Below are positions 6,808-24,482 of a stretch of 41,039 nt of DNA, piece after piece (positions within the stretch are counted from its first letter, which is position 1; every line of letters begins with the position of its first letter). Position numbers and translations under genes: made by a program. Below the pieces are notes generated by a model. The model saw nothing but the letters and a program-made list of their open reading frames with translations, was not told the DNA's origin and made no database searches. The DNA is from a phage. The stretch is taken from sequence record NC_093712.1. The stretch is one strand, 5' to 3'.

Positions 6808-7361
6808 TGGCTAAGGTAATTATTCTTAATGGTCCTGCTGGTTGCGGGAAAGACACTCTTGCTATGGCGTTGGTAGAAATGGGCTTTGCAAAAGGAACTG
6901 CCAGTTTCAAGAATCCGATGTTCAATATTGCTATGGCTGCGTTAGGCCAGGATGCTTACCGCGAGTTTCTCGACGGCTACGACGACCGGGCGCGGAAAGA
7001 AAAGCCAGAGGGTTTCCTTAACGGGTTGTCTCGGCGTCAGTTCATGATTGCCATTTCCGAGCAATTCATTAAACCGGTATTCGGTGATGATTATTTCGGT
7101 AAGTATCTTGCCGGAAACTTGCCCGACGGCGACGAAGTTTTTGTGGTGTCTGATGGCGGGTTCGCCAGCGAAGTAGCCCCTATCGTTGCCGCAGGGCATG
7201 ATGTGAGAATCGTCCGCTTGCACAGAGACGGCCATACGTTTGAAGGGGACAGCCGCGGTTACCTGTACGATATTGATGGTGTAAAAGATTATGACACCCA
7301 CATCATACCGGGTTACGTTAAATCGAACGCTATAGGTATTGCTTTAATATTAGGTTTGTAA
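6807..7361 (+). CDS. P-loop nucleotide kinase, T4 gp1 dNMP kinase-like
   Basis: Walker A GPAGCGKDT; further blocks (AMAALG, RRQFMIAIS, VVSDGGF, DVRIVRLHRDG) resemble T4 deoxynucleoside monophosphate kinase as recalled. Confidence 0.65.
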   Translation: MAKVIILNGPAGCGKDTLAMALVEMGFAKGTASFKNPMFNIAMAALGQDAYREFLDGYDDRARKEKPEGFLNGLSRRQFMIAISEQFIKPVFGDDYFGKYLAGNLPDGDEVFVVSDGGFASEVAPIVAAGHDVRIVRLHRDGHTFEGDSRGYLYDIDGVKDYDTHIIPGYVKSNAIGIALILGL

Positions 7362-7363
7362 GA

Positions 7364-7390
7364 AAAAGGCCCCGAAAGGGGCCTTAGTTT
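7364..7390. terminator. bidirectional rho-independent terminator
   Basis: AGGCCCC-GAAA-GGGGCCT hairpin flanked by A-run upstream and T-rich downstream; lies between convergent kinase and major tail genes. Confidence 0.75.
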
Positions 7391-8556
7391 TATGCGTAGG
7401 TGATGCGCTGAATAACAATAGACGACTGGTACTGGTTACCAGTAGCCTGGCCTTCGATGGACTGAGTGATTGACTCAGGCCCGCCAATCTCAGGTGTAAC
7501 CGCGGTAAGTTCTGCACGTTTCAAGCTGAAAGACATAGCCCCGTTTACCCCCGCCAGAATAGAGTTAATCTCCACCTGCTGCTCGTTGATAAACTTCTGA
7601 ATCATCGCCATGTCGTACAGCTTACCGGAGATGGAGAAGGTGTTAGCTGCTCGGCTACGCTCCACAAACGCTACGTTAGTGTTGCCGAGTTCGAACTGTG
7701 CGGACGCGCTGTTGTCGTTGGTGATGGTCAGGCTGTCGCAACGCAACGGCGTAGAACCGTCGAACACAGAAACATCGACCGAGGAGAATGGCTCGTTACC
7801 AAACGTAACAGAGGAGAAATCAGAACCAGACGGCTGCGTGGTGAGAATCTCCTGACTGCGACCGATGAACGGGAAGCTGCCAGTTACCATAGCGTTAACA
7901 GCCTGTTCGATGGTAAAACCAGAAACTTCCACGCCTTTGGTTAGTGTGTACGCGTCAGTCCCGCCGCACTGGCCTTTGTACCAGGTGAGAATAGAGAACG
8001 TCTTGCACTGGCTTCCCGTTTCCAGTTTATCCCCTGTCTTAGCGGCGGTAGTTACTGTCTCTGTGGTCAGGGTATGCTGGATACCTGCCCCGGTCACTAC
8101 CAGCGCCTCTACTGCAGTTACGATAAACGGTTTTGCGTTGTCACCGGTTAAGTCGGTAAACGCAATCAGGTCGCCCACTTCAACGCCGTCAGAAATAAAG
8201 CTACCTTCGGCACGGGTAAAGGTCTTGCCTGCAGGCGCGACGGTAATTGATAGCCCGGTCAGAGAACTACCGGATCGCCATGTAGAGCCTAAAGCACCCG
8301 CCAGCCAGTCGTCCTGGCTTTTCGAGCTAAGCTCAATAGCGTATTCTCCGCTAACCTGCTTGTTACCGGTGCGGATTGACGTAGTTTCACGGCTGCCGTC
8401 CAGTTCGTTGGAGGTCAGCGTGTCGCGGGTAATGGCAGGAACGCCACCTGTGTTACGCAATGGCGACCAGACCGGGTTAGTCGGTGTTACGCCCGGGGTA
8501 GTTTCTGCCACATAGAATTGCGCAGTATTCGCGCCCTTAAAAGGAGTTGTAGCCAT
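7390..8556 (-). CDS. major tail protein
   Basis: 388 aa, Thr/Ser/Gly-rich beta-type composition, position between tail terminator-like genes and chaperones; RBS AAGAGG before ATG at 8556 (track start 8562 is GTG). Confidence 0.65.
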   Translation of the reverse strand: MATTPFKGANTAQFYVAETTPGVTPTNPVWSPLRNTGGVPAITRDTLTSNELDGSRETTSIRTGNKQVSGEYAIELSSKSQDDWLAGALGSTWRSGSSLTGLSITVAPAGKTFTRAEGSFISDGVEVGDLIAFTDLTGDNAKPFIVTAVEALVVTGAGIQHTLTTETVTTAAKTGDKLETGSQCKTFSILTWYKGQCGGTDAYTLTKGVEVSGFTIEQAVNAMVTGSFPFIGRSQEILTTQPSGSDFSSVTFGNEPFSSVDVSVFDGSTPLRCDSLTITNDNSASAQFELGNTNVAFVERSRAANTFSISGKLYDMAMIQKFINEQQVEINSILAGVNGAMSFSLKRAELTAVTPEIGGPESITQSIEGQATGNQYQSSIVIQRITYA

Positions 8557-8558
8557 AT

Positions 8559-8975
8559 TCACAGCCTCTTGGTGAATGCAATAAAGTTAATTGACAATGG
8601 TCGTTTGGCCCATCCGTTTTCTACAATCAGCGGCCCCAGGCTAACCTCACTCACAACGGCGCAGATGTCGTTACGTGAAAATGACTTACCTGCTTTAAAC
8701 GCCGTGTTAAGTAAGTCTGCCATTTTATTGATCGGCGCGCTACCTTTCACCGATGCGTAGTTAATGTCGACCTGATAAACACCCGCGCGTTGTTCCGTGA
8801 AGAACAAATCTGCTTGCTCCGTATCCGCCAGCAACATGTAACTTGCCAGATACGGCGTATCGGTTGACGTCGGCGCGTCTATGTTTTCAAGCGCGACCTT
8901 AATGCCGTTGGTGGTTCCGAAGGCTACCAGCGGCACATCGAACGCTTTCGTTAAGTCCTCAAAGTAGCCCATCAT
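8559..8975 (-). CDS. tail terminator / tail completion protein (positional call)
   Basis: 138-aa ORF directly upstream of major tail gene, ATGA-coupled. Confidence 0.45.
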   Translation of the reverse strand: MMGYFEDLTKAFDVPLVAFGTTNGIKVALENIDAPTSTDTPYLASYMLLADTEQADLFFTEQRAGVYQVDINYASVKGSAPINKMADLLNTAFKAGKSFSRNDICAVVSEVSLGPLIVENGWAKRPLSINFIAFTKRL

Positions 8976-9367
8976 TTCACCTTGTTGGCTTCTTCGTTAA
9001 TGAGTTGCTGGAAACGCGATATATTAGTTCTTACCATACCTTGTGGCGCCTGTTGCGACCAGCCATACTCCAGCCGTTGTGCATACGGCAGATTATTTGT
9101 CAGCGTGAACTCGCGCCAGTCTGTGGCTTTAAGCACGAAACTTGTAGCGTTTCCGGTTGCCGTGTTTCCTGATTTATCCGTAGCGTCTGTAATTCCGGAA
9201 GCGGGAGTGCCGCCAGACGCCATCCAGTTCATACGAAAGCGACCTGTATCTACCGGACTTGCCTTTATGATAGCGGAAAACAGTTTGATAGACACCTGAC
9301 GCATCACCTTCTCGGGGTTCTTCTTCGCCTTTTCCACGAACTTAGAGACATCAAGCGCGAAACTCAT
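8972..9367 (-). CDS. neck / tail-completion protein, HK97 gp10-like
   Basis: 131 aa with VDTGRFRMNW motif reminiscent of HK97 gp10 family (recalled). Confidence 0.5.
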   Translation of the reverse strand: MSFALDVSKFVEKAKKNPEKVMRQVSIKLFSAIIKASPVDTGRFRMNWMASGGTPASGITDATDKSGNTATGNATSFVLKATDWREFTLTNNLPYAQRLEYGWSQQAPQGMVRTNISRFQQLINEEANKVK

Positions 9368-9723
9368 TTTCTCACCTGAATAAAATACGCCACGACATCA
9401 TCGTTAACCATCTTCTTCTCGATAGCTACGACAGACCATTGCTCGCCGCCGAATTGTACCTTGTCTTCCATTTTTGGCACGACACTGCAATCCGCTTTAA
9501 CAACCATGTCGCCAGCCTGAATCGTCGTACCATTAACCAGTCCCACGTTAACCGGAACCGGAACGGCCTTCAACGGCAGCACTTCATCGTCAGACCATAC
9601 GTACTCACCGAGAACTTCATCCCACACTTTCGATCCAGCACGAACCAGAGATACCGTGCTCCCGAATTTGGTTAGCAGTCGTGTACCAACGCCTTGCATA
9701 CGTTTACTGAAAGCAGTGCTCAT
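9364..9723 (-). CDS. head closure / head-tail joining protein (positional call)
   Basis: ORF in connector region; ATG at 9723 is ATGA-coupled to upstream stop (track start 9777 overlaps upstream gene). Confidence 0.4.
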   Translation of the reverse strand: MSTAFSKRMQGVGTRLLTKFGSTVSLVRAGSKVWDEVLGEYVWSDDEVLPLKAVPVPVNVGLVNGTTIQAGDMVVKADCSVVPKMEDKVQFGGEQWSVVAIEKKMVNDDVVAYFIQVRK

Positions 9724-10337
9724 CTGGCGGCCTCCAGTCTCGAAATAACCAGTAGCGCGGACGGTGCTGTGCCCCATGCGGTTACGGTAGCGACTTGTGG
9801 GTACACGCCGCCGAAGTTAGTTCCGGCGCTATCCCGCATAATCTGTATAGCCAGCGTCTGACCGGCAGCAGGGTTAACAACTACACGCGATTCGATCGGG
9901 ATTGTTACGTCGGCGCTTACCAGTTTAGTTGCCGCGGGAGAACCGTACTGAGCACCATTAAGAAGAATGCGCGATAACAGGATTGACGTTCCGCTAGCGC
10001 CCGTGCGCCCGGCCTGTAACTTGATGCGAACGGCATAGTTTCCGGGGGTGTTGAACGTAACCAGCCCCGCAGCATTAATCATTACCGGGTCGGATGCGCT
10101 ACCCTGAGCAGAGCCGAAAGTTAACTGCAACGCCGTGTCTACTGCGGTAGGCGCTTGGGCTACAGTAGACGCAGCACGGAGAACTTCAACTTCTTTAACG
10201 CCTGGAGTGGCGTAAATAGGAGAGTCCGCCATCTGTGTCATTACTTCGCGTAACTTCGCGGAGGTGATAAGCCCGGTGGTGTTGTCGGGATGATTCGCAC
10301 CGATAAGGGTGAACATCTCTGTTTTAGTTTTCACCAT
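9720..10337 (-). CDS. virion structural protein of head-tail connector region
   Basis: 205-aa ORF, Thr/Ala/Gly-rich, within structural operon. Confidence 0.4.
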   Translation of the reverse strand: MVKTKTEMFTLIGANHPDNTTGLITSAKLREVMTQMADSPIYATPGVKEVEVLRAASTVAQAPTAVDTALQLTFGSAQGSASDPVMINAAGLVTFNTPGNYAVRIKLQAGRTGASGTSILLSRILLNGAQYGSPAATKLVSADVTIPIESRVVVNPAAGQTLAIQIMRDSAGTNFGGVYPQVATVTAWGTAPSALLVISRLEAAR

Positions 10338-10339
10338 TT

Positions 10340-10852
10340 TTAACCCCGGTACACGTTAAACGAGAAGCCATTGTTAAGACCGCCGCACAGTAACGGGCGT
10401 AATGCGTCGTCAGCAGCGGTAATCGCGGTTGTAGCTCCACTGCTGCCGTTGTTGAAGTAGGTTACAGTCACCGCACCCTCGACACGCTCAGTCTGCACGG
10501 AACGACCGTCTGAGTTGGCCCGCACCTCAGTACCTGCACCATATGTAGCGGCAGCGATTACCTGCGCAAGAATCACCTGCTTCGGAATGGTATTGTTAGC
10601 TACCGAGAAGCCATTCAACGTTACCCCAGTGCGGGGGTACGCCAGCGACTGTTCAGCGGATACACGGCTACCGCACATCTGAGGTTCTGCAAGCCCAACA
10701 TAAGTAGCACCGTTGCGCAGGGCCACCTCTGCGGCGGTATCGTCTGCTGGTAACCCAAGACCGTAATTAGCCGCTAACGCGCGGGCGTCGGCCAGACTAA
10801 CGTAACTGTCGGCATCAGGTACTATCGACCCATCTTCCACGATTAGCGGCAT
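10340..10852 (-). CDS. head-tail adaptor (HK97 gp6-like connector protein)
   Basis: 170 aa; N-terminal SYVSLADARALAANYGL resembles head-tail connector family; immediately after capsid gene. Confidence 0.5.
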   Translation of the reverse strand: MPLIVEDGSIVPDADSYVSLADARALAANYGLGLPADDTAAEVALRNGATYVGLAEPQMCGSRVSAEQSLAYPRTGVTLNGFSVANNTIPKQVILAQVIAAATYGAGTEVRANSDGRSVQTERVEGAVTVTYFNNGSSGATTAITAADDALRPLLCGGLNNGFSFNVYRG

Positions 10853-10855
10853 AAA

Positions 10856-11023
10856 TTATTCCTCTGATTTAGCCCGACGCTGGCGGCGCGGTGTCTCTTC
10901 TTTAGCCGATTCTACCACGGTGCCTTCTGGTGCGAAACGAGCATCTACCACACGGAACCCCTGGCGGTTATACTCGCGCTTCTGCTCGATGGTAATCGGC
11001 ATTGGTACATATTTAATTTCCAT
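10856..11023 (-). CDS. small hypothetical protein (55 aa)
   Basis: Manually found ORF MEIKYVPMPITIEQKREYNRQGF..., strong RBS AGGAGA, fills gap between capsid and adaptor genes. Confidence 0.45.
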   Translation of the reverse strand: MEIKYVPMPITIEQKREYNRQGFRVVDARFAPEGTVVESAKEETPRRQRRAKSEE

Positions 11024-11040
11024 TTTAATTTCTCCTAGTA

Positions 11041-11067
11041 AAAAGGGGCCGTAGCCCCTTTGTTTTT
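11041..11067. terminator. bidirectional rho-independent terminator after major capsid gene
   Basis: AAGGGGC-CGTA-GCCCCTT hairpin with TTTGTTTTT on plus and T-run on minus. Confidence 0.7.
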
Positions 11068-11080
11068 ACCACTAACTGTA

Positions 11081-12049
11081 TCACTTGTCCGCGTCGGCGA
11101 TTGCCAGAGTACCGAGGGTGTGTTTGTTCTCGGCAACAGCTTTGTCCCAGTTGGTCGCGGTGAACAGTTCTGCGTCCAGCGGAGATTTACCGCCGTTGGC
11201 GACATCCCAGCTATAGCCTTTCAGTTTCAGGCCGAAGCTGTAATCCGCCTGCCAGGTGGTCTGGATGCGGGTGTTACCGTTGCTGGTATCAATGTTGCTG
11301 ATAATATCAGAAGCATTATCAACGATGATGCCGTTTGCAACTACGGACAGGACCTTAGTCTTGTTCGGAGTACCGGCCTCGTACAGCGCAGGAATGTCAG
11401 AGATTACGTAACGCTTGCCGAGAACATCGACAACCATAACGTTACCGGCAACGAACAGCTGGTTTGCGTTAGTCAGCGCTTTATCTACCAGCGTGTGATA
11501 AGCAGCACCAGTCATGATGTCGGTAATCAGCAGCTGAGACTGGTCGCCGAATTTAGCGTGGCTGTTGTTCAGCACGTTCAGGGACAGACCTACGGTTGTA
11601 GATACGTCGTTAACCAGCGCGGCCTGACCAGATACCGCAGCAACAGCTGCGCCAACAGCGGTGTTGAGCTGGTCCGCTAACAGTGCGTCAGAGAAGCCTT
11701 CGGAAATAGCACGAATCGCGCTTGCCGGGTCTTCGTTAAGCCAAGTCATTTGCGCAGGCTCGAACAGTACCGGTCCGAAGCCGCCAGCGACTTTAACGCC
11801 TACATGCTCGCCCTGAGTCAGCGCGGTAGCTGCCTGAGACTCGATAGCGGCGTAACGGTCAACGCGGCGTTTAGCGGAGGCAATCTGGTTAAAGAAAGAC
11901 TCACGGGAGAAGTCACCGCGCCATGAAGCGGTAGACAGTACAATTGCACCACCGGAGGCTGCGTTAAACTGGTCAGTTTTCTGGCCAAGCAGTTCGATAG
12001 TGGTACCGACGATGTCGTCGTTATAAACCTTCATATCTGACAGAGACAT
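11081..12049 (-). CDS. major capsid protein
   Basis: 322 aa, preceded by scaffold gene and followed by strong terminator; RBS GAGGA. Confidence 0.75.
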   Translation of the reverse strand: MSLSDMKVYNDDIVGTTIELLGQKTDQFNAASGGAIVLSTASWRGDFSRESFFNQIASAKRRVDRYAAIESQAATALTQGEHVGVKVAGGFGPVLFEPAQMTWLNEDPASAIRAISEGFSDALLADQLNTAVGAAVAAVSGQAALVNDVSTTVGLSLNVLNNSHAKFGDQSQLLITDIMTGAAYHTLVDKALTNANQLFVAGNVMVVDVLGKRYVISDIPALYEAGTPNKTKVLSVVANGIIVDNASDIISNIDTSNGNTRIQTTWQADYSFGLKLKGYSWDVANGGKSPLDAELFTATNWDKAVAENKHTLGTLAIADADK

Positions 12050-12055
12050 ATTCTG

Positions 12056-12682
12056 TTATCCTCGTTTGCCGTATTTGGCGTTAAGTTTTTGCTGGATTAC
12101 GTCCGCACCACCGGCCCCGCCAGTAGAATTTTTGTTACCGGAAGCCCCGCCGCCGGTTGCCGCATCTGCTTTAATCAGATGCGAAAATGCTTTGTGCTCA
12201 CGCAGATACTTTTTAAATTGCTCTGCGTCGGTGGTGATGACATTACCGTCTGCACCTGTGAACTTGGTCACAACGTCATCGCCGTCAAATTCGGTCTTGA
12301 CCATCATAGCGATAATATCCGCTGCGCTCTCATCAATCAACATTCCAGACAACTGGCTGATAACTGATTTACGTTCCGCGCCGAGGATACGCTCAGCCAT
12401 TTTGCTAATCTTACCGTCTTTCTCGGCGAGTACTGGCTCATACTGACTGCGCAACGTTTTCTCGAATGCCTCAAGTTCGCCGTTCTGTTTTGCGCGTTCC
12501 TGTTCGGCTTTCAGCTTCGCATCTGCGGCTTCTTTCGCGGCAGCGGCGGCAGCTTTCTTTTCAGACAAGAGTTTCTCGTTGTTAGCTTTAAGACCGGATA
12601 CCAGCGCGTCAACTTCTTCTTTGGTAAACGTGGTCTTAGTCTCTTGTTGTTCGATAGTTTCGTCTTTCACTTCTTCGCTCAT
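12056..12682 (-). CDS. capsid scaffolding protein
   Basis: Highly charged Ala/Lys/Glu-rich helical protein immediately upstream of capsid gene; ATG at 12682 with GGGGA RBS (track start 12733 lacks RBS). Confidence 0.65.
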   Translation of the reverse strand: MSEEVKDETIEQQETKTTFTKEEVDALVSGLKANNEKLLSEKKAAAAAAKEAADAKLKAEQERAKQNGELEAFEKTLRSQYEPVLAEKDGKISKMAERILGAERKSVISQLSGMLIDESAADIIAMMVKTEFDGDDVVTKFTGADGNVITTDAEQFKKYLREHKAFSHLIKADAATGGGASGNKNSTGGAGGADVIQQKLNAKYGKRG

Positions 12683-12761
12683 CAGTATGTCCCCTGGACG
12701 TTGGAATCCGGGCCACCCGGATTTACATGTCAAGAATAAATTATTCCAACATACAAGGCAA

Positions 12762-13025
12762 CTATTCCAGAATATTCCTCACGTAATCCTGCAACATGAA
12801 CACTTTAAGTCTCAGTTGCCGTACACATTCTGCGTTCTGGACGTCAATAGCTAAATCCTCGTCCGCGTCGTTACTTGGCAGTGCCAGTTTGCACGGCGGC
12901 TGCATCATCGTCGTATCCGGGGATGGAATTGGCGTTTGCGACGGCGCGGGACTTGAGCTGCACGCGCTCAGGGTCAAAAGTGCACACGCTGCGGCCAGGC
13001 GTTTTAATGTACTTAACGACTTCAC
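12762..13025 (-). CDS. o-spanin (Rz1-like outer-membrane lipoprotein)
   Basis: 87 aa, signal peptide with lipobox LTLSAC, Pro-rich mature part; starts inside and in a different frame from the i-spanin gene and extends past it (overlapped architecture). Confidence 0.7.
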   Translation of the reverse strand: MKSLSTLKRLAAACALLTLSACSSSPAPSQTPIPSPDTTMMQPPCKLALPSNDADEDLAIDVQNAECVRQLRLKVFMLQDYVRNILE

Positions 13026-13257
13026 GGGTGATCACCTCTGATTTCGTCTTGCCTTCGTTATCGGCGGCTGCGGCCTTTGATTCATCCTGCTGCTGCCGTT
13101 GTGTTTTCTTCGCCAGCTCAGCCTGTGCTTTCTGCTGTTGCCGCGAAACGAGATTAGCGCGACCTTCGTTCCAGCCGCTGCGATACTGATAAATGCCGTG
13201 TGCGTAAGCCAGGATGATGAAACATGTTCCCGCTACGACAGTTGCTTTAAGATTCAT
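12871..13257 (-). CDS. i-spanin (Rz-like inner-membrane spanin)
   Basis: 128 aa, N-terminal TM segment ATVVAGTCFIILAYAHGIY, then coiled-coil QQQKAQAELAKK; embeds the lipoprotein ORF. Confidence 0.7.
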   Translation of the reverse strand: MNLKATVVAGTCFIILAYAHGIYQYRSGWNEGRANLVSRQQQKAQAELAKKTQRQQQDESKAAAADNEGKTKSEVITREVVKYIKTPGRSVCTFDPERVQLKSRAVANANSIPGYDDDAAAVQTGTAK

Positions 13258-13362
13258 GTTTCTCCTTTCTCGATAAGTAAAGCCCCGCCATAAAGCGGGG
13301 CGCTAGTCCTCATCATTTAAACATAGAAACGGCGTAATCTCAGTAAACCAGTTACTTTTTAC

Positions 13363-13522
13363 ACAAGCAATAGAGTATGGCCCTTCCGAACGCGTCAGCG
13401 TAACTACACTCAGGACTTACGTCCCGCTCCGTTACCTGCCCGCGCCGCGGTCGCTTGTTCATACTTCACAAGCTCAGGTGGAGCTTAGCACATTTTCAGT
13501 GAAAAGTCAACTATTCGAATAG
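13363..13522 (-). promoter_or_regulatory. conserved promoter plus structured leader element, copy 1 (TTGACT-17-TGnTAAGCT promoter at 13510..13482, then conserved hairpins)
   Basis: ~145 nt shared with 24338-24482 (blocks TATGGCCCTTCCGAAYGCGTCAGCG, CGGTCGCTTGTTCATACTTCACAAGCTCAGG, GAGCTTA, AAAAGTCAA); no conserved ORF; followed by hairpin GCGCCCCGC/GCGGGGC (13281-13305) before spanin RBS. Confidence 0.5.
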
Positions 13523-13572
13523 TTTATTCCAACATTTACAATTATGTGGAATAACTGGAATAATCACAGGCG

Positions 13573-13606
13573 CTAAAAAGCCCCTTTCGGGGCTTAAGTT
13601 TATTCT
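13573..13606. terminator. rho-independent terminator (bidirectional)
   Basis: AAGCCCC-TTTC-GGGGCTT hairpin with flanking T/A runs; just past stop of gene 13600..14061. Confidence 0.7.
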
Positions 13607-14061
13607 GGCTTCGTAGCCTTCGCAGCTTTACTCACCGCCTCAACTCCAGTGGCATCAGTAACTTTAACGAAGTATTCACCCACCGCGTTAACCGTCAGAG
13701 ACAAAGCCTCTTCCGGGGCGTTTACCACTTCCTTGCCGTCTTTGTACCAGGTCAGAGTATACGGCGCTTTACCTGCCTTAACTTCGACGGTGATGGTGGC
13801 GCTACCGTCGACCAGCTCGGTGTCTTTCGGTTGCACCGAGAAATACACGTCACCTGCATCCGCCAGATACGGAATCTCGTAAAGCATACCCGCCGCGGGC
13901 AACGCAATGCCCGTTTTATCTGCAAACGGCATATCGTCTACAGGGGTACCCAGTACACTTTCGTCCCCAATAGACACCACGTTCTCACCTGAGCCGGACA
14001 CACGAGCAAACTGGACAACACGGCGCGACGGCACATCAGTTACTTTGAAAAAGCCCATCAT
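13600..14061 (-). CDS. Ig-like domain virion protein (possible head decoration or accessory protein)
   Basis: 153 aa; C-terminal TITVEVKAGKAPYTLTWYKDGKEV...YFVKVTDATG resembles bacterial Ig-like (Big) fold; ATGA-coupled to head morphogenesis gene. Confidence 0.5.
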   Translation of the reverse strand: MMGFFKVTDVPSRRVVQFARVSGSGENVVSIGDESVLGTPVDDMPFADKTGIALPAAGMLYEIPYLADAGDVYFSVQPKDTELVDGSATITVEVKAGKAPYTLTWYKDGKEVVNAPEEALSLTVNAVGEYFVKVTDATGVEAVSKAAKATKPE

Positions 14062-15137
14062 TAATCCCCTTTCAGATAATCAGCAACACGTTTATCGAGT
14101 TCCGCCATCTGCTTAAGCGTGAGCGGATTCCCGAAACCATCTACAGATATTACGCGAAACTCTTCCGGCGATATACCGCTGTTACGGAAAATCTTACCGC
14201 GAACAGGGCCGAGGGCCTGGTCCTGGAACCACGCCGGTTGTTGCTTCAGGAACTCGTAGTAAGTGGTGTCTGCGCTTACCTGAGTACCACCATCTGCGCC
14301 TTTAGCCGCTCGTTTTGCGCCCTTATCGAGGAAGTCGAACTCCGAGATAATTACCGGCGCAGTGGTACTTCGGCAATTCGGATGCGCCGGCGGCATCGGC
14401 CCCTTACCGATTTCCCACGTCATCCCGTCCCTGACCCTGCAAATCGTACTGGTACGGCTGTCAAGCGTTGACACCCACTCATATTTCTCGATGATGTCGT
14501 CGTTCTGGCGGTACGTCTCGTTACGGGCTTCGTTGGATACGTGAGACAGCGCAGTGCGGGTTACCGTCGCGGCGTTACGCTCAGAGATGTCCGCCAGCCC
14601 ACCAGCGCCAACAACGTTCTTAACAATCTGCCGTGTTGTCTGACCTTGTACAAAGCCCATCTTAACGCCCGTTACCAGGCGCGCGACCTCCGTTTCACCC
14701 CAGCCAGACATCAGCTTAGTGAAATCAACGGGCTTGTCGCTTAACGATAAGGGCTGAAACTCGGCAGCGGCCCATACCTGTTCCGCGGTAGGTGTAACAA
14801 ATTCTGCGTTAACGTTGGCAGTCAGCGTTTTTACGTTCCACTCAGCCTCATACACGGCCAGTTCCTTAAGGTCTTCTGTCAGCTTTGTTTGCCAGTCACC
14901 AGTAAGTCCCGCCAGTGCTTCTTCAAGGTCCCGTAACAGTTTATTCAGCCGCGCAGTGCTTCGCCCGTCGTCGCCGAATAACAGCACCTGCCGTTTGATT
15001 TCATCCCGCATCTCCTGAATGAACGGTGCGAGGTCTTTCACCTCACCGGATGCGGTGCGTTGCAGCCATATCTGATGGCTGATGAGGGATGTAAGTAAGC
15101 TCATAGTTAAACCCTGTGGTACTAAAGTTAATAGCAT
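14061..15137 (-). CDS. head morphogenesis / minor head protein (SPP1 gp7 / Mu F-like)
   Basis: 358-aa ORF directly after portal gene; start could instead be internal ATG at 15104. Confidence 0.6.
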   Translation of the reverse strand: MLLTLVPQGLTMSLLTSLISHQIWLQRTASGEVKDLAPFIQEMRDEIKRQVLLFGDDGRSTARLNKLLRDLEEALAGLTGDWQTKLTEDLKELAVYEAEWNVKTLTANVNAEFVTPTAEQVWAAAEFQPLSLSDKPVDFTKLMSGWGETEVARLVTGVKMGFVQGQTTRQIVKNVVGAGGLADISERNAATVTRTALSHVSNEARNETYRQNDDIIEKYEWVSTLDSRTSTICRVRDGMTWEIGKGPMPPAHPNCRSTTAPVIISEFDFLDKGAKRAAKGADGGTQVSADTTYYEFLKQQPAWFQDQALGPVRGKIFRNSGISPEEFRVISVDGFGNPLTLKQMAELDKRVADYLKGD

Positions 15138-15145
15138 ACTATAAG

Positions 15146-15163
15146 AAAGCCCCTTTCGGGGCT
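15146..15163 (-). terminator. hairpin terminator between portal and head morphogenesis genes
   Basis: AAAGCCCC-TTTC-GGGGCT followed on minus strand by TTTCTTAT. Confidence 0.5.
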
Positions 15164-15173
15164 ATATGTGAAC

Positions 15174-16667
15174 TTACGGCTGAGTGGTGTCCTGTTGCTG
15201 CGCCGACTGCGGGATATCCCCCGCCACCTGAGTAACAGCACCTAACGGCAGCGGCGCATCCTCGATAGCATTCTGAATGTCCTCGTCTGTCCAGTCAGTT
15301 ACCCCCGCCTTACGCAACGCAGCATAGTAAGCGGTAGCCGGTAACAGGCCCGCGTTAATATCCGCCATCCACTGAGCGCGGTCCTGGGCGGTCATTGGTT
15401 GCAGGAAGAACTCCATGTTCAGTTTGAACTCAATTTCAGTGCCGTCACTAAGCCCAAGCATATCAGCAACCCACTTCAGCGCATCGGTATACGCCATGCT
15501 TACGTTACGTGCAATTGTCGCCATAACGGACGTGTCGGCACCACGTTGCAGGCGTGCCGATTCCGCGGTGATTTGCTGCACCGGGGTAATAAGCTGTGCA
15601 CCAATCTGGATTGCCTGGTTCTCTTTATCCAACATGTTCTGCTTGGCTAGGTTGTTCTCACCGGCCTGGACCAGAAACGCATTGCCGCCGTAACCGATGT
15701 TATGGCCAGAACGTGACCCCATACGCACTCCGTGAGGGTTGGCTTCTTTCCATTGTCCCATGCTCATGTTCTCACCGGGGGCGATGAACAGAGTAGGCTG
15801 GCCTACGACGAAGCTGGACTCCTCATTGTCCGCGCTGTTGCGGAAGTGCCCGATATTAAGTTCAGCCAACGGCAGCAAAGGTGCATCGTCAGGGGTTGAG
15901 TCGTTATTTCCCGCGCCGATGAACGTGAACGGAATCACCCCGACCGGAATATTACCGAGTTTCGGGAATATTTCGATATAGCCACCTTCCATCAGTGCAC
16001 CTTTCTGGTTAAAGCGGTACAGACGCTGGCGATACTGGCCTTCGAAAATATCAAGGACGCGGTATTGCTCGCCGTAGTTGGGGCTGAACTCATCCGCGCC
16101 ATCGGTGTACTCGTATTCCTCACGCAATACAACCATAACCACACGATTAACAGACCCGACGCGCTGGAGACGCCAGTTGATGATGTTCTCTGCGGTGTAG
16201 AAAGCGATTGTTGGGTTTAGTAAACCCTCGTTTTGCTCTGCCATGGTAGCTACTTCTACCGCGGGGGCGTCAACCAGCAAACCACCGCGACCAACAGCAT
16301 CAATCTCATACAGAGTATCCTGTGCGTGCTGCCACAGGCCAACGCCCGACCCGTCACAGTTAGTGGTCAGGTATTCCATCTGAGACGGAATAATCATCTC
16401 GGGGTCTTTGCGCATTACGCTGCCGACCATGCCTGAAAGCGTTCGCTTGGTGAAGTTGTAGCAAATTGCCCCCGCTTCGTATTCAGCCTGACGCTGGCGA
16501 CCGTAAACCGGGTCCGGCTCATTCTTACTGACGTCACGTAGATACGATGTCAGGTCGCCAGAAAGCGCATGTCGCACCTTCTGCCACTTAGGGAAATACT
16601 CTTCGTACTGGCGGTGGCGGGTTTTAACGTTCTGCCCTTGCCCTGCGTTAATGTTTGCGGAAACCAT
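15174..16667 (-). CDS. portal protein
   Basis: 497 aa, position immediately downstream of large terminase; RBS AAGAGGA. Confidence 0.8.
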   Translation of the reverse strand: MVSANINAGQGQNVKTRHRQYEEYFPKWQKVRHALSGDLTSYLRDVSKNEPDPVYGRQRQAEYEAGAICYNFTKRTLSGMVGSVMRKDPEMIIPSQMEYLTTNCDGSGVGLWQHAQDTLYEIDAVGRGGLLVDAPAVEVATMAEQNEGLLNPTIAFYTAENIINWRLQRVGSVNRVVMVVLREEYEYTDGADEFSPNYGEQYRVLDIFEGQYRQRLYRFNQKGALMEGGYIEIFPKLGNIPVGVIPFTFIGAGNNDSTPDDAPLLPLAELNIGHFRNSADNEESSFVVGQPTLFIAPGENMSMGQWKEANPHGVRMGSRSGHNIGYGGNAFLVQAGENNLAKQNMLDKENQAIQIGAQLITPVQQITAESARLQRGADTSVMATIARNVSMAYTDALKWVADMLGLSDGTEIEFKLNMEFFLQPMTAQDRAQWMADINAGLLPATAYYAALRKAGVTDWTDEDIQNAIEDAPLPLGAVTQVAGDIPQSAQQQDTTQP

Positions 16668-16678
16668 TTGTTGTCCTC

Positions 16679-17929
16679 TTAAAGTGCGAAAGTCACCGGG
16701 ATGTTGATTACTGGTTTAACCACCGGCATCTCGTAAACTACAGGATAGCCGAGAGCATCCGCCATATGGTCAATGATGCCGTCTTTAGCTGGCTCTCCGT
16801 TATCGTCGTATGCCTGCTGCTCCAGCGTCTTCGCTATCTCAGGGCATAAGTGGTCGTTAATCCACAGTTTACCTTTTTCCAGTGCGGTATTCACGGCTAA
16901 AACACGGTCTTTAACCGGAGGGTTGGCGGATTTAGCGCGAACATCGAAACCTGCCTGCTGGAGTAACGCAATATCTGAGATTGACGCCGAGTTGGTCTTG
17001 CGGTTCTTGCCGCTGGCGTCCGGGTAAACGACTATGCGGTGGCCCTGCGACCTCCACTTCTCAGTAATTACGCGCACGGTATCCGGTGTATCGAACAGGC
17101 CTTTCAGTTCTGCTACCGCGTGCCAGCCGTCTTTACGTTGCACATACACGGCGCTTGCGTTCTTCGTAACGTTGAAGTCCTGCCCGATGTACAACGTGTC
17201 ACCCGGTTGAATTACCTCTTTGCTGCGGTGCTTACGGCGGTCATATGCGTAATACACGCTGCCGGAGGTAAGGTTGACGAACTCACCATTCAGATACGCG
17301 TTAATCAACTGCGCCGGATAAGTCTCGGTCAGCGAACTAATGTAGTCAGGCGGCAGGAATCGCGCGTTCTCGTGTGTAGAAGCCTGCACCATCGAGTAAC
17401 TCGGCGTCGGGTTCTCTTTGAACTTGGCGTAGACGAACTTGAACCCTTCCGGTGTCGTGGTGACAGAGATGTGGTTAATTACGCCAGGAATAACAAGACG
17501 CATACGGGCCACAATTTTGTTCCACGCCAGTTCAGCTTTCTCGCGGCTCAATACATCCAGCTCATCCACGACTGCCGCAGCGATTTTGAAGCCGACGATA
17601 GAGCCTGGGTTATCCATCGAACGGCAGATAACAGTTCCGAGAACCGTCTTACCGCGAGTAACCACGACTTCTTTGTCGCCAGATTTAACCAGCACATCGA
17701 GGCCGAGCAGGTTAGCGGCTTCCTCAAATGTCGGGTAGAAGATGTCACGGATAGCCGGGTATGTCGGGCCGAAGTAACCCAGGCGCGTACCTGGATGCTT
17801 GAGCATAAACGTAAGCAGGTCAAGGCAGCCAACAAATGTCTTTCCGCTGCCGAAGCCGCCGACATATGCCTTATATTTGTTATCACAATTCAGGAACAGC
17901 GCCTGCGGTGCGGATAGCTGAATACTCAT
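16679..17929 (-). CDS. terminase large subunit
   Basis: 416 aa; Walker A GGFGSGKT near N-terminus, acidic nuclease-type C-terminal half; ATGA-coupled to small subunit. Confidence 0.85.
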   Translation of the reverse strand: MSIQLSAPQALFLNCDNKYKAYVGGFGSGKTFVGCLDLLTFMLKHPGTRLGYFGPTYPAIRDIFYPTFEEAANLLGLDVLVKSGDKEVVVTRGKTVLGTVICRSMDNPGSIVGFKIAAAVVDELDVLSREKAELAWNKIVARMRLVIPGVINHISVTTTPEGFKFVYAKFKENPTPSYSMVQASTHENARFLPPDYISSLTETYPAQLINAYLNGEFVNLTSGSVYYAYDRRKHRSKEVIQPGDTLYIGQDFNVTKNASAVYVQRKDGWHAVAELKGLFDTPDTVRVITEKWRSQGHRIVVYPDASGKNRKTNSASISDIALLQQAGFDVRAKSANPPVKDRVLAVNTALEKGKLWINDHLCPEIAKTLEQQAYDDNGEPAKDGIIDHMADALGYPVVYEMPVVKPVINIPVTFAL

Positions 17930-18471
17930 TCCCCTACCTCACCCATATTCGTTGTTACAATTTTACCTACAGGCTCTGCAACACTAAAAATAATCTCAGT
18001 CGGTGCCGTTTCTTCGGTGGATTCGACTGGTTTCTCTTTACCGAGGCCCAGTTTAGCTGCGGCGAACGTAGCAGAGATGCCCGCGGCCCCTGTCTCAGTG
18101 AAGTACGCCTCTTCCAGTGCCTGTGCTGTCTCGTATGCTTCTGCAAATGCAGGAATCTCGCGCAGCCACAGCTTAATAATCGGGATAGTGACGCCGATGT
18201 GCAGGGCGAAGCGGGCCAGTGACGGAGGTTTATCCTGAATCAGCGGGCGTTCGTCACCCTTAGACGTAGGCACGAGTTCCCACGACGTGCGGTCGAAGAA
18301 CTCGATTAACGCGTCGCAATAGTCCGGGTCCCACAACGCTGCGGAATTACGGGACGATTGATAAAGGCTCTGTTTACCGCGCGGTCGTTTACGGCGGCGG
18401 TTTGCGCTAACAGCTTCTTCATGTGCAGCTTGCACCACCTCTGGCGATGGCTGCTTGAGTTTCAGCTTCAT
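17926..18471 (-). CDS. terminase small subunit
   Basis: ORF immediately upstream of large terminase; ATG at 18471 has AAGGGGA RBS (track start 18510 lacks RBS). Confidence 0.6.
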   Translation of the reverse strand: MKLKLKQPSPEVVQAAHEEAVSANRRRKRPRGKQSLYQSSRNSAALWDPDYCDALIEFFDRTSWELVPTSKGDERPLIQDKPPSLARFALHIGVTIPIIKLWLREIPAFAEAYETAQALEEAYFTETGAAGISATFAAAKLGLGKEKPVESTEETAPTEIIFSVAEPVGKIVTTNMGEVGE

Positions 18472-18562
18472 AGAATCCCCTTGCATATGCGTCTGACCAT
18501 CAGAGCGCACCAGACGCGCCCTACGCGTCTAAAGGGATTATATAAGGTGATTGGGCGGGATG

Positions 18563-18589
18563 TACAGAAAAGCCCTCGGTAGAGGGCTT
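18563..18589 (-). terminator. rho-independent terminator separating early-left operon from packaging genes
   Basis: AAGCCCTC-GGTAG-AGGGCTT hairpin followed on minus strand by TTTTCTGT. Confidence 0.6.
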
Positions 18590-18687
18590 GTATCAGTTGT
18601 ATAGGCCGTGGCGTGGTGCTCTTTTACCGTCGCCGCCGTAATGGTCGTTAGCTACGGGAATGGCCCAGGCGTTAGGGATGATTAGTA

Positions 18688-18849
18688 GTCTCATTTGAAG
18701 AAACCATCCTTGACAAGCTGACGGTATAGTTTAGCTGCGTAACGCTCTGCCTGGCCTTTGCGCCGAAATATTTTCCCATTAACTGAATACTTATTTAACT
18801 CTGGCTCGTACCAAACTTGGTTGTCGATGAACTCCAGAATACTAATCAT
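18688..18849 (-). CDS. hypothetical small protein (53 aa)
   Basis: Manually found; strong RBS GAGGAG, ATGA coupling to upstream gene. Confidence 0.45.
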
Positions 18850-19082
18850 CCCCCACTCTCCTCTTTAGCAATACGTTGCTCAGTTTTAGTGATACCCCGG
18901 CGCGTGAATAACACCGGGCTTGTCTTAACGTGCGTCATCAGACGGTTGTTATAAATTACATGGCGCTCGCAGTTAACGTCTTTGCTGTACTTGGCAATCG
19001 TCATTTCGTTGATGCCGGTTTGTCGGCATGTCTCAGCCATCGCGCCGTATTCTTTAATCAGGTTTGGAATGCTGGTAATCAT
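18846..19082 (-). CDS. hypothetical small protein with possible HTH
   Basis: ATGA-coupled start at 19082 (track ORF extends to 19106); segment TCRQTGINEMTIAKY is HTH-like. Confidence 0.45.
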   Translation of the reverse strand: MITSIPNLIKEYGAMAETCRQTGINEMTIAKYSKDVNCERHVIYNNRLMTHVKTSPVLFTRRGITKTEQRIAKEESGG

Positions 19083-19916: not shown

Positions 19917-20000
19917 CTTCTCTACTCCGTTCTCGTTGTCGATGGAGTAAATATAATAGGGTCGCAGGTAATAGTCAACTAGTCATTACAGAAAACAGAT

Positions 20001-20265: not shown

Positions 20266-20855
20266 TCATTTAACCGCCCTACCGATAGCCTCAGCCTCTT
20301 GCCACGGTTTACCGTCGAACAGCGCCAGACGCCCGGCTGTACGGCGACGCAGGCCAAGTAGTGGTTTGCCGTTCTGGTTGATGAACAGCGCCAGCTTGGC
20401 CCGCAGCGTCGCAGTATCACCGGAACGCAGTGCCTTACCCGTGCCGGTAGTAGCTGCAATCACACCGGCACCAGCGTTATACACCAGGTCGCACATTGCA
20501 CGAACCCCTTCATGAAGGTGGGGGACGGAACGCAGTGCCTACCCGTGCCGGTAGTAGCTGCAATCACACCGGCACCAGCGTTATACACCAGGTCGCACAC
20601 TGCATCGAACTGCGCCTGTGTCAATGAATGGTGTGCTGCCGCATCGACCGCGGCCACGGCCTTAGCCATATCGCGATTCAGTAACAGGAGGCCTTGTCCT
20701 GGGGTGATGGTCTTGCCTGGAGTCACGTCCGGCCCGTAGTGCCCGTACCCAATAGTCAGGTACTTCTCGTTCGGCGTAGCGCGATACGCAGTTCCGCGGA
20801 ATCCCTCGAACGCGGCACAGAAATGCAATCCATTATCTGAAATATTTCGAGACAT
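20266..20855 (-). pseudogene. endolysin (GH24 phage lysozyme) with reading frame interrupted by 105-bp imperfect tandem duplication
   Basis: N-part (20460..20855) has lysozyme motif FEGFRGTAYRATPNEKYLTIGYGHYG; C-part (20266..20496) continues in another frame; both fragments contain CDLVYNAGAGVIAATTGTG encoded by the duplicated DNA. Confidence 0.7.
20421..20599. repeat. imperfect tandem direct repeat (2 copies, period 105 bp) with palindrome CCTTCATGAAGG at junction
   Basis: 20421-20495 and 20526-20599 are identical except a 1-nt indel; similarity extends ~10 nt further; 12-bp perfect palindrome at 20507-20518 between copies. Confidence 0.8.
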
Positions 20856-21105
20856 GCTTATGTCCTCCGTATGACAGCCACGCCTGGCGAATCTGGCGCA
20901 GCGCGACTAATGTGATTAATGTCTCAGGCAGCGTAGGCGACATGCTGCCCTGTAACAGGTGAATACATCCGGCGGCACAGACAATAGCAGTCAGGATATA
21001 GAGCACCCGACCGAACAGCCCGTCGTCCACATGTTCATTATACACGTTGAACAGGGACGAAGCGCCCATTGAAAGCATTGTGACAAACCAGAATAGCTCA
21101 GTCAT
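20833..21105 (-). CDS. small membrane protein of lysis cassette (possible second holin / antiholin)
   Basis: ATG at 21105 with AGGAGGA RBS, 4 nt after holin stop; two hydrophobic segments. Confidence 0.5.
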   Translation of the reverse strand: MTELFWFVTMLSMGASSLFNVYNEHVDDGLFGRVLYILTAIVCAAGCIHLLQGSMSPTLPETLITLVALRQIRQAWLSYGGHKHVSKYFR

Positions 21106-21406
21106 GCGGTCCTCCTGGGCGGGCAATATCGCCGCCCGATACGATGCCGGAAAGGCGGGAATAGATAGGCATCCAGAGAATGGCAATGATGAATCCAAGG
21201 CCAGCTATCTCACGCTCACCGGTAATACCGAACCATTGAGCGGCAAGAGGTGCACCGAAAATAGCACACGCGAAGCCGGTGAGAAGAAATACCAGTCCGT
21301 CAATCGGCCCGGATATAGACTTTTTATGTTGTCTTAGCCCGACCAATCCACCGACCAGTGCGGCAGCGAGAAGCCACCCCGTCACTGTTTCAGTAAATTT
21401 ATCCAA
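21098..21406 (-). CDS. holin
   Basis: 102 aa with three predicted TM segments and charged C-terminus, immediately upstream of endolysin. Confidence 0.6.
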   Translation of the reverse strand: MDKFTETVTGWLLAAALVGGLVGLRQHKKSISGPIDGLVFLLTGFACAIFGAPLAAQWFGITGEREIAGLGFIIAILWMPIYSRLSGIVSGGDIARPGGPHD

Positions 21407-24337: not shown

Positions 24338-24482
24338 TAATAGACTATGGCCCTTCCGAATGCGTCAGCGAGGCTCACTCCACACGTCGAGACGTGCTCG
24401 TTTCGCCTGCCGCGCACCGCGGTCGCTTGTTCATACTTCACAAGCTCAGGACGAGCTTACCATATTTCTCAGTAAAAGTCAA
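24338..24482 (-). promoter_or_regulatory. conserved promoter plus structured leader element, copy 2 (TTGACT-17-TGnTAAGCT at 24482..24454)
   Basis: Near-identical blocks to 13363-13522; hairpin CACGTC-GA-GACGTG (24373-24386) replaces GGAC-TTAC-GTCC of copy 1 at the same relative position; perfect TATAAT on plus strand at 24336-24341 is an alternative reading. Confidence 0.5.

What the first reader, a model, noticed from the sequence alone, without database searches (positions are those of the whole stretch)
12762..13257. Spanin pair in overlapped architecture located in the capsid module, far from holin and endolysin
The Rz-like i-spanin and the Rz1-like lipoprotein with lipobox LTLSAC overlap in different frames between the Ig-like virion protein gene and the scaffold gene, about 8 kb from the holin-endolysin cassette (20266-21406). 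A split lysis cassette, with the spanins preceded by one copy of the conserved leader element, suggests separate regulation of the final lysis step.
Basis: partly seen in the sequence, partly recalled or inferred. Interest (0 to 1): 0.45.

Follow-up and report, generated by a model that had tools for sequence, protein, structure and literature searches.

The report
Known Kagunavirus spanin gene pair
These two overlapping genes are the already catalogued outer-membrane-disrupting "spanin" pair of a K1H/K1G-like E. coli phage, sitting in the place where the whole phage group keeps them, so the finding is correct but ordinary.

Summary
On the minus strand, 12871-13257 encodes a 128-aa protein with an N-terminal membrane helix. 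In the +1 frame, 12762-13025 (GTG start) encodes an 87-aa lipoprotein precursor with lipobox LSAC (Cys22). The two genes overlap by 155 nt.

The window is a Kagunavirus (Guernseyvirinae), about 95-96% identical to phages K1H, G AB-2017 and UTI89UKE1. GenBank and RefSeq K1H annotate the same two genes, at the same place, as spanins. Kongari et al. 2018 list K1G and K1H in the "Jersey" overlapped spanin family, with a 155-bp overlap and conserved Cys45 and Cys67, all of which match here.

The position between the Hoc-like and scaffold genes, far from holin and endolysin, is conserved in Jerseyvirus, Dhillonvirus and Serratia relatives and has been reported in genome papers. So this is already known.

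The "leader element" is also real: a sigma-70-type promoter, a 115-nt structured RNA with compensatory base changes, and a terminator-like hairpin. No Rfam family matches it. The operon it heads runs on into the scaffold and capsid genes. A second copy heads the operon that contains holin and endolysin. This argues against spanin-specific "separate regulation". The leader RNA is the only possibly new item.

The parts
12871..13257 (-). i-spanin (Rz-like) gene: 128 aa, with an N-terminal transmembrane helix around residues 5-23, a helical polyQ-rich periplasmic domain, and a periplasmic Cys92.
   Evidence: ORF. Hydrophobicity and Cys positions. phrog_2536 'Rz-like spanin', E 2.6e-56 over the full length. 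It differs from K1H gp06 at 3 of 128 residues. AF2 single-sequence model gives helix 3-64 at pLDDT 75-88.
12762..13025 (-). o-spanin (Rz1-like) gene: GTG start, 87-aa precursor, signal peptide with lipobox LSAC (Cys22), Ser at +2, and a 66-aa Pro-rich mature part with Cys45 and Cys67.
   Evidence: ORF. Lipobox patterns. phrog_5672, E 7.4e-30, and phrog_1267, E 6.1e-20. Identical to the K1H gp07 translation. Cys45/Cys67 and the 155-bp overlap are as described for the Jersey family.
12871..13025 (-). 155-nt stretch read in two frames (i-spanin C-terminus and o-spanin signal peptide/N-terminus). This is the 'overlapped' architecture.
   Evidence: Coordinates and frame offset. The same 155-bp overlap is reported for phage Jersey.
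13482..13510 (-). Sigma-70-type promoter-like site, TTGACT-17 nt-TAAGCT with TGn before the -10. GGAATAAACTATTCGAATAG half-site repeats abut it at 13511-13531.
   Evidence: Read from the sequence. It is conserved in all element copies. Palindrome searches. Function is inferred, not shown.
13368..13481 (-). Structured 5' leader RNA (copy 1), about 115 nt: hairpin P1, a long irregular helix, and an apical hairpin of variable sequence.
   Evidence: Repeat. RNAalifold consensus. Covariance model hit of 137.9 bits. Pair counts: 96.5% paired against 88.2% in shuffles, covariation score 0.237 against 0.096, 0 of 500 shuffles as high. No Rfam match.
13282..13301 (-). GC-rich terminator-like hairpin, GCCCCGC-TTTATG-GCGGGGC followed by TTTACTTAT. 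It ends 24 nt before the i-spanin ATG.
   Evidence: Top-listed terminator-like site in the 1-20000 scan. Termination itself was not tested.
13578..13595 (.). Palindromic GC hairpin right after the Hoc-like gene stop. It is a likely, borderline terminator closing the terminase-portal-Hoc transcription unit.
   Evidence: (D4). An equivalent hairpin is present in Jersey.
24338..24482 (-). Second copy of the promoter (-35 at 24477-24482, -10 at 24454-24459) and leader RNA (24338-24453). It lies at the head of the minus-strand operon that leads to holins, endolysin and terminase. Its own hairpin is at 24250-24266.
   Evidence: 119.6 bits. It has the same position in Golestan, AV104 and SHAK7858.
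20266..21406 (-). Holin (21098..21406), second holin (20833..21105/21198) and endolysin (20266..20855). In this window the endolysin is split by a 104-nt insertion.
   Evidence: phrog_2359, phrog_2508, and PF00959/phrog_7. Insertion.

Best explanation
The two ORFs are the two-component spanin of a Kagunavirus (K1H/K1G-like E. coli siphophage). They belong to the published 'Jersey' family of overlapped spanins.

Mechanism, inferred from the Rz/Rz1 paradigm and not tested here: the 128-aa i-spanin is anchored in the inner membrane by its N-terminal helix and extends a helical domain into the periplasm. The 87-aa precursor is lipidated at Cys22, cleaved, and sorted to the inner leaflet of the outer membrane (Ser at +2). 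The two C-termini bind across the periplasm, and the complexes are stabilised by disulfides (Cys92; Cys45 and Cys67). Once the holins have triggered and the endolysin has removed the peptidoglycan mesh, the complexes fuse the inner and outer membranes and release the progeny.

The genes sit at the conserved position of the group, between the Hoc-like decoration gene and the scaffold gene. They are the first genes behind a sigma-70-type promoter and a structured leader. They are most likely co-transcribed with the scaffold, capsid and tail genes, so they are made late and wait for the endolysin rather than being timed separately.
For: ORFs, frames, transmembrane segment, lipobox, Ser at +2, Pro-rich mature domain and Cys positions.

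Full-length match of the i-spanin to phrog_2536 (E 2.6e-56), and of the o-spanin to phrog_5672 and phrog_1267, all named 'Rz-like spanin'.

95-96% nucleotide identity to Kagunavirus genomes. K1H RefSeq and GenBank annotate the same genes as spanins in the same place. The o-spanin translation is identical to K1H's, and the i-spanin differs at 3 of 128 residues.

Kongari et al. 2018 list K1G, K1H and Jersey as one overlapped spanin family with a 155-bp overlap and constant Cys45/Cys67.

The lipobox Cys is kept in the +1 frame in Jersey, Dhillonvirus and Serratia relatives, despite divergent signal peptides.

Synteny head-morphogenesis - (Hoc-like) - spanins - scaffold - capsid, also in the more distant Jersey, Dhillonvirus and Serratia relatives.

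Published genome papers place the spanins at ORF7/8 or gp9/10 and the holins and endolysin at ORF66-68 or gp63-65.

No other lipoprotein-plus-TMD candidate exists in the window, and none lies next to the endolysin.

AF2 gives a long N-terminal helix, residues 3-64.
Against: I found no experimental test of this spanin family (complementation, lipidation or localisation) in the papers read. The function therefore rests on sequence features and family assignment.

Pfam gives only a sub-threshold hit (DUF2514, 16.9 bits against a cut-off of 26). NCBIfam gives nothing for the i-spanin.

The transmembrane call is a hydropathy heuristic (1.59), not a dedicated predictor.

The C-terminal half of the AF2 model has low confidence.

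Co-transcription with the capsid genes is inferred from the absence of terminator-like sites. It has not been measured.
Confidence: 0.93

Rival explanations
1. Only the 128-aa gene is real. The 87-codon ORF in the +1 frame is a chance open frame with a fortuitous lipobox.
For: Several GenBank records do not call the full ORF and annotate only a 47-48-aa product from an internal ATG. It uses a GTG start. Other lipobox-like strings occur by chance elsewhere in the window.
Against: The frame stays open with a signal peptide and lipobox Cys in relatives whose i-spanin is only 40-65% identical, while the signal sequence itself diverges. The non-overlapping C-terminal part is highly conserved as protein, 80-98% identical in hundreds of records. 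A GAGGTG Shine-Dalgarno-like sequence precedes the GTG. The SpaninDB curators list K1G and K1H among the o-spanins of the Jersey family.
Confidence: 0.02
2. The pair is not a lysis function, or not only one. It is a membrane-associated head-assembly or DNA-packaging accessory, which would explain its fixed place inside the head module.
For: Its position between the head morphogenesis/Hoc-like genes and the scaffold gene is conserved across Guernseyvirinae, Dhillonvirus and Serratia phages. No functional test of this family was found.
Against: Every defining sequence feature of two-component spanins is present. The genome has no other spanin candidate, although its host is Gram-negative and it has a canonical holin/endolysin set. 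Unlinked spanin genes have a proven precedent in T4 pseT.3/pseT.2.
Confidence: 0.03
3. The spanins form a separately regulated lysis unit, and the leader element sets the timing of the last lysis step independently of holin and endolysin.
For: A terminator-like hairpin follows the Hoc-like gene. A promoter-like site, a conserved structured leader and a second terminator-like hairpin lie immediately before the i-spanin. This unit is more conserved (96.5-99.2% nt) than the flanking Hoc-like gene (84-97%) and the i-spanin-only segment (90-94%), though no more than the scaffold gene (96.8-99.8%), in 7 related loci.
Against: No terminator-like site separates the o-spanin from the scaffold and capsid genes, so the unit is not spanin-specific. 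A copy of the same element heads the operon that contains holin and endolysin. Spanin action is gated by peptidoglycan removal, so no independent timing is needed (established knowledge; PMC6139136).
Confidence: 0.1

Closest known systems
Jersey-family overlapped spanins (SpaninDB, Kongari et al. 2018, PMC6139136), e.g. phage K1H gp06/gp07 (YP_009168838/YP_009168839) and Jersey gp09/gp10
   Same: Same genes. The o-spanin is identical to K1H's, and the i-spanin differs from K1H's at 3 of 128 residues. Shared features: 155-nt overlap, +1 frame, Cys45/Cys67, polyQ helices, and the same position between the Hoc-like and scaffold genes.
   Different: Three substitutions in the i-spanin relative to K1H. 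Nothing structural differs.
Lambda Rz/Rz1
   Same: Same two-component design: a type II inner-membrane protein plus a small Pro-rich outer-membrane lipoprotein encoded in the +1 frame of the same DNA, with periplasmic Cys residues for disulfides (for the paradigm; here).
   Different: In lambda, Rz1 is wholly embedded in Rz, and the pair is the last part of the S-R-Rz lysis cassette. Here the o-spanin runs past the i-spanin stop, and the pair lies 7-8 kb from the holins and endolysin. No lambda-specific sequence family matched.
Phage T4 PseT.3/PseT.2
   Same: A proven two-component spanin whose genes are not near the holin (t) or endolysin (e). This is the precedent for a split set of lysis genes.
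   Different: The T4 genes are of the 'separated' (non-overlapping) type and belong to an unrelated sequence family.
Phage P2 LysB/LysC
   Same: Listed in the overlapped class of two-component spanins.
   Different: It is a different sequence family. From my own knowledge of P2, its spanin genes lie within the lysis cassette.
HK022 put RNAs and the lambda PR'-6S RNA-tR' unit (analogues for the leader only)
   Same: Promoter-proximal structured RNA present in two similar copies on the same strand. It consists of two stem-loop units and has hairpin or terminator-like sites downstream.
   Different: No sequence or Rfam relationship was found. The element is 115 nt against about 70 nt for put. Antitermination was not tested. 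The downstream hairpins lack a clear U-tract in the Jersey copy and the third variant class.

Membership tests
Two-component spanin (Rz/Rz1 class) | i-spanin: a small protein with a single N-terminal transmembrane domain (type II topology) | tested here: met
   Residues 5-23 have a Kyte-Doolittle mean of 1.59, with Lys4 on the N side. A hydrophobic N-terminus is conserved in Jersey, PaulFeyerabend and Smarc3. This is a hydropathy heuristic only.
Two-component spanin (Rz/Rz1 class) | i-spanin periplasmic domain that is largely alpha-helical or coiled-coil and charged | tested here: inconclusive
   The AF2 single-sequence model gives helices 3-64 (pLDDT 75-88) and 69-79. The C-terminal half is below 50. 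Kongari et al. predict two helices with a beta-containing linker for this family.
Two-component spanin (Rz/Rz1 class) | o-spanin: a signal peptidase II signal with a lipobox Cys, no Asp at +2, and a short Pro-rich mature domain | tested here: met
   MKSLSTLKRLAAACALLTLSAC|SSSP. It matches the PS51257-like rule and a stricter pattern. The mature part is 66 aa with 8 Pro. The lipobox is conserved in distant relatives.
Two-component spanin (Rz/Rz1 class) | o-spanin gene embedded in, overlapping, or directly following the i-spanin gene | tested here: met
   +1 frame, 155-nt overlap, extending 109 nt past the i-spanin stop. This is the overlapped type.
Two-component spanin (Rz/Rz1 class) | Periplasmic cysteines available for intermolecular disulfide bonds | tested here: met
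   i-spanin Cys92; o-spanin Cys45 and Cys67. These are the positions reported as constant in the family.
Two-component spanin (Rz/Rz1 class) | i- and o-spanin bind through their C-termini and are required for outer-membrane disruption (complementation of lambda Rz/Rz1 amber mutants) | not testable with these tools
   This needs genetics or biochemistry. No experimental test of the Jersey family was found in the papers read.
Jersey spanin family (at least 40% identity over at least 40% of the length, Kongari et al. 2018) | Sequence identity to listed members (Jersey, K1G, K1H and others) for both proteins | tested here: met
   The i-spanin is 97.7% identical to ULINTec2 and 65% to Jersey. Compared with K1H, it differs at 3 of 128 residues and the o-spanin is identical. 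The o-spanin C-terminal two-thirds are 80-98% identical in Jerseyvirus records.
Lambda-type contiguous lysis cassette (holin-endolysin-spanin) | Spanin genes adjacent to the holin and endolysin genes | tested here: not met
   The spanins are at 12762-13257 and the holins/endolysin at 20266-21406. The terminase, portal, head-morphogenesis and Hoc-like genes lie between them.
put-like processive antiterminator RNA (for the leader only) | A nascent RNA that makes RNA polymerase read through downstream terminators, dependent on the beta' zinc-binding domain | not testable with these tools
   Only the anatomy is analogous: two copies, a promoter-proximal position, two stem-loop units, and hairpins downstream. 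No homology was detected.

The most novel reading that the evidence does not exclude
The spanins themselves are not new, but the element in front of them may be. The 115-nt structured leader RNA (13368-13481, with a second copy at 24338-24453 and a diverged orthologue upstream of the i-spanin in phage Jersey) could be an undescribed cis-acting phage RNA. By analogy with the HK022 put RNAs, it could make host RNA polymerase resistant to the hairpin terminators that punctuate the long late operon (13282-13301, 13578-13595, 15148-15163). If so, it would switch on the spanin/capsid/tail genes, and in phages with the second copy also the holin/endolysin/terminase genes, without any Q- or N-like protein. 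That it is a functional structured RNA absent from Rfam is well supported. The probability given below is for the antitermination mechanism.
Probability: 0.15. Interest if true: 0.55.

Novelty: already known. Interest (0 to 1): 0.12.

Why it matters
As a spanin finding it adds nothing new. The genes, their overlapped architecture and their odd position are already annotated in GenBank and RefSeq (K1H, 2010 onwards), catalogued in the spanin database paper (2018), and mentioned in several genome reports.

Its practical value is as an annotation check. Many related records truncate the o-spanin at an internal ATG and lose the lipobox. The GTG start used here and in K1H is the one that gives a functional lipoprotein.

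The only part that could matter scientifically is the conserved promoter-leader-hairpin unit upstream. It is a covarying RNA structure with no Rfam family, and it is more conserved than the Hoc-like and i-spanin genes that flank it. It deserves its own evaluation as a candidate regulator of late transcription in Guernseyvirinae.

Tried and rejected
Rfam at gathering threshold on the whole window found nothing. Rfam at E<=10 on both leader regions gave only chance-level hits.

Pfam gave only a sub-threshold DUF2514 hit for the i-spanin and nothing for the o-spanin. NCBIfam gave nothing meaningful.

I considered that the conserved element is the 36-aa ORF 13352..13462, which some records annotate as a hypothetical protein. 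I rejected this for three reasons. Copy 2 has a 2-nt indel that ends the frame after 19 codons. The AV104-type variant lacks the ATG. Conservation continues out of frame.

I looked for a third leader copy with the covariance model and filters off. There is none. The model found no copy in the Dhillonvirus or Serratia loci at E<=1.

I looked for another spanin candidate, either a unimolecular spanin or an o-spanin next to the endolysin. There is none. The other lipobox-like strings lie in alternative or antisense frames of known genes, or inside a holin TMD.

The genome-contig scan, and about half of the metagenome scan with the degenerate pattern, returned chance matches from unrelated bacteria. 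I filtered these out with nhmmer.

The one transcriptomics paper on a Kagunavirus (PMC12645636) does not report spanin, holin or endolysin kinetics by name.

A possible internal promoter between the o-spanin and the scaffold gene (TTGACA at about 12726-12731) has no acceptable -10 hexamer, so I did not count it.

Full report
**What is there.** On the minus strand, 12871..13257 is an ATG-initiated ORF of 128 aa. In the +1 frame, 12762..13025 is a GTG-initiated ORF of 87 aa. The second ORF starts at nt 233 of the first and runs 109 nt beyond its stop, so the two share 155 nt.

The 128-aa protein has its most hydrophobic 19-residue window at residues 5-23 (ATVVAGTCFIILAYAHGIY). It also has a Gln/Lys/Ala-rich region and a single periplasmic Cys at position 92.

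The 87-aa protein begins MKSLSTLKRLAAACALLTLSAC|SSSP. This satisfies a PROSITE PS51257-like lipobox rule and a stricter lipoprotein-signal pattern. It has Ser, not Asp, after the lipidated Cys22. It leaves a 66-aa mature domain with 8 prolines, and Cys at precursor positions 45 and 67. Both starts have Shine-Dalgarno-like sequences (AAGGAG and GAGGTG).

**Identity of the genome and the genes.** The 2.2 kb around the finding is 95-96.5% identical to Kagunavirus genomes of the Guernseyvirinae: UTI89UKE1, G AB-2017, K1H and others, 198 matching records in all.

K1H (GU196278 / NC_027994) annotates exactly these two genes as 'putative spanin' or 'Rz-like spanin; overlapping gene'. They lie between the Hoc-like decoration gene and the head scaffolding gene. 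The o-spanin translation is identical to K1H's, and the i-spanin differs at 3 of 128 residues.

PHROGs places the i-spanin in phrog_2536 (E 2.6e-56, full length) and the o-spanin in phrog_5672 and phrog_1267, all labelled Rz-like spanin. Pfam and NCBIfam add nothing above threshold. A single-sequence AF2 model gives a confident helix over residues 3-64 and an unreliable C-terminal half.

**Already in the literature.** Kongari et al. 2018 (PMC6139136) list Jersey, K1G, K1H, K1ind1-3, SETP3 and others as the 'Jersey' family in the overlapped class. They state that the Jersey genes overlap by 155 bp, that the i-spanins have polyQ stretches, and that o-spanin Cys45 and Cys67 are constant. All of these features are seen here.

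The Golestan genome paper places the spanins at ORF7/8 and the holins and endolysin at ORF66-68. The SeF1 (Jerseyvirus) paper lists gp9/gp10 (phrog_2536, phrog_5672) against gp63-65. The separation from the holin-endolysin genes is therefore also documented. T4 pseT.3/pseT.2 is the classical precedent for unlinked spanin genes.

**More than chance, and conserved.** tblastn finds homologues of each protein in about 660 phage records.

The gene order portal - head morphogenesis - (Hoc-like) - i/o-spanin - scaffold - major capsid holds in several groups: Jersey, the Dhillonvirus PaulFeyerabend, Serratia phage Smarc3 and Bas74.

In all of them the +1 frame stays open. It starts with a signal peptide ending in a lipobox Cys (LSAC, or LNGC in Jersey), although the signal sequences are dissimilar. 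That is the signature of selection on a real lipoprotein.

A scan of every start codon in the window for lipoprotein signals finds no other candidate paired with a membrane-protein gene, and none beside the endolysin. This is therefore the phage's only spanin candidate.

**Surroundings.** Holin (21098..21406, phrog_2359), a second holin (20833..21105/21198, phrog_2508) and a T4-lysozyme-type endolysin (20266..20855, PF00959) lie 7.0-8.1 kb away on the same strand. The small genes, terminase, portal, head-morphogenesis and Hoc-like genes lie between them and the spanins.

**The 'leader element'.** The 343-nt gap between the Hoc-like stop (13600) and the i-spanin ATG (13257) reads as follows on the coding strand.

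- A palindromic GC hairpin (13578-13595).
- Operator-like half-sites GGAATAAACTATTCGAATAG (13511-13531).
- A promoter-like TTGACT-17-TAAGCT (13482-13510).
- A 114-nt conserved segment (13368-13481).
- About 65 nt of less conserved sequence.
- A strong terminator-like hairpin (13282-13301).
- The ribosome-binding site.

The promoter plus conserved segment recurs once, at 24338-24482 on the same strand. The 31-nt core is identical in both copies, against 0 matches expected by chance. A covariance-model search with filters off finds no third copy.

Across 180 phage records the copy upstream of the spanins is 95-99% identical. In 7 loci where every segment could be compared, it was more conserved (96.5-99.2%) than the neighbouring Hoc-like gene (84-97%) and the i-spanin-only segment (90-94%). 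It was not more conserved than the scaffold gene (96.8-99.8%). The second copy is present in only a subset of records and is more variable.

Five sequence variants were recovered from GenBank, IMG/VR and metagenomes. They keep the same fold through compensatory changes. One pair of the long helix occurs as C-G, U-A and A-U. The apical hairpin has entirely different sequences in the different variants (GGAC/GUCC, GUGC/GCAC, CACG/CGUG, GUGCC/GGCAC).

On a model-based alignment, 96.5% of cells pair, against 88.2% in shuffles and 29-45% with slid partners. The covariation score is 0.237 against 0.096, and 0 of 500 shuffles reach it. This alignment was fitted to the model, which leans the counts towards the structure.

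The same model finds a diverged copy in phage Jersey (40.5 bits, E 6e-9). It sits at the same place, between the Hoc-like gene and the i-spanin, with its own promoter-like site and downstream hairpin.

The 36-aa ORF inside the element is not conserved. No Rfam family matches. The element is therefore a real, structured, apparently undescribed 5' leader RNA.

The spanins are indeed the first genes behind a promoter and leader. However, no terminator-like site separates them from the scaffold and capsid genes. The second copy of the same element stands in the divergent control region, at the head of the operon that runs through the small genes into the holins, endolysin and terminase.

The simplest reading is that the element belongs to late or long-operon transcription in general, and that the spanins are simply made together with the structural proteins. 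This is sufficient, because spanins are inert until the peptidoglycan is degraded (established spanin biology; PMC6139136). Spanin-specific 'separate regulation' is neither needed nor indicated.

How the leader works is unknown. The options are a plain 5' UTR, an attenuator, a roughly 200-nt sRNA ending at the hairpin, or a put-like processive antiterminator (for the put paradigm). The put-like reading is attractive because hairpin terminators punctuate the operon at 15148-15163, 13578-13595 and 13282-13301. It is weakened because the downstream hairpins in Jersey and in the third variant class lack U-tracts.

**Verdict.** The spanin identification is right. The arrangement is the conserved and already published state of Guernseyvirinae and their relatives. 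The regulatory inference is not supported as stated. Novelty: already known. Interest: low. The leader RNA is the one by-product worth a separate look.

Noticed in passing
window 20266-20855 (repeat copies 20436-20500 and 20540-20604): The endolysin gene carries a 104-nt insertion: a partial tandem duplication of about 80 nt with a degraded junction. It is absent from the related records listed and splits the gene into 131-aa and 76-aa ORFs. Without the insertion the gene would be 486 nt. It is either an assembly artefact or a defective allele.
   Followed up: partly
window 13368-13481 and 24338-24453 (minus strand); L003 (phage Jersey) 2802-2901: A 115-nt structured leader RNA directly downstream of a TTGACT-17-TAAGCT promoter-like site. 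It has compensatory base changes across five sequence variants and no Rfam family. The copy upstream of the i-spanin is 95-99% identical across 180 phage records, and a diverged orthologue occupies the same position in Jersey.
   Followed up: partly
window 4759-4773, 22671-22686, 24158-24172, 27743-27757, 30312-30326; also 13511-13531, 12734-12748, 10849-10863: An operator-like palindrome GAATAG-N4-CTATT lies inside sigma-70-type promoters (6 matches at 5 sites, 0.07 expected). Related half-sites (GGAATAA-N2-TATTC, CTATTCGAATAG) abut the -35 of the spanin-operon promoter and also lie between the o-spanin stop and the scaffold start. This suggests that one phage DNA-binding protein acts on both early and late promoters.
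   Followed up: partly
L002 (G AB-2017) 2763-2909; L006 (Bas74) 5838-5981: Several GenBank records annotate the o-spanin as a 47-48-aa product from an internal ATG, which loses the signal peptide and lipobox. The 47-position profile phrog_5672 mirrors this truncation. The upstream GTG start, as in K1H, restores the lipoprotein.
   Followed up: yes
window 15148-15163 (minus strand): A terminator-like hairpin, AGCCCCGAAAGGGGCT followed by TTCTTAT, lies between the portal and head-morphogenesis genes, inside what looks like a single long operon.
   Followed up: no
window 12707-12731 (minus strand): A TTGACA hexamer followed by a perfect hairpin AATCCGGG-TGG-CCCGGATT lies in the 79-nt gap between the o-spanin stop and the scaffold ATG. 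It has no usable -10 hexamer and no U-tract. It may be an RNA processing or translational element for the scaffold gene.
   Followed up: no
L138 (JAEWLW010000073.1, 'MAG: Bacillota bacterium') and L042 (OR594183.1 SHAK7858): A 6.2-kb contig binned into a Bacillota MAG carries the Kagunavirus leader element, so it is probably phage contamination of the bin. The SHAK7858 record is filed under Autographiviridae/Kayfunavirus, although this region matches the Kagunavirus leader and gene layout.
   Followed up: no
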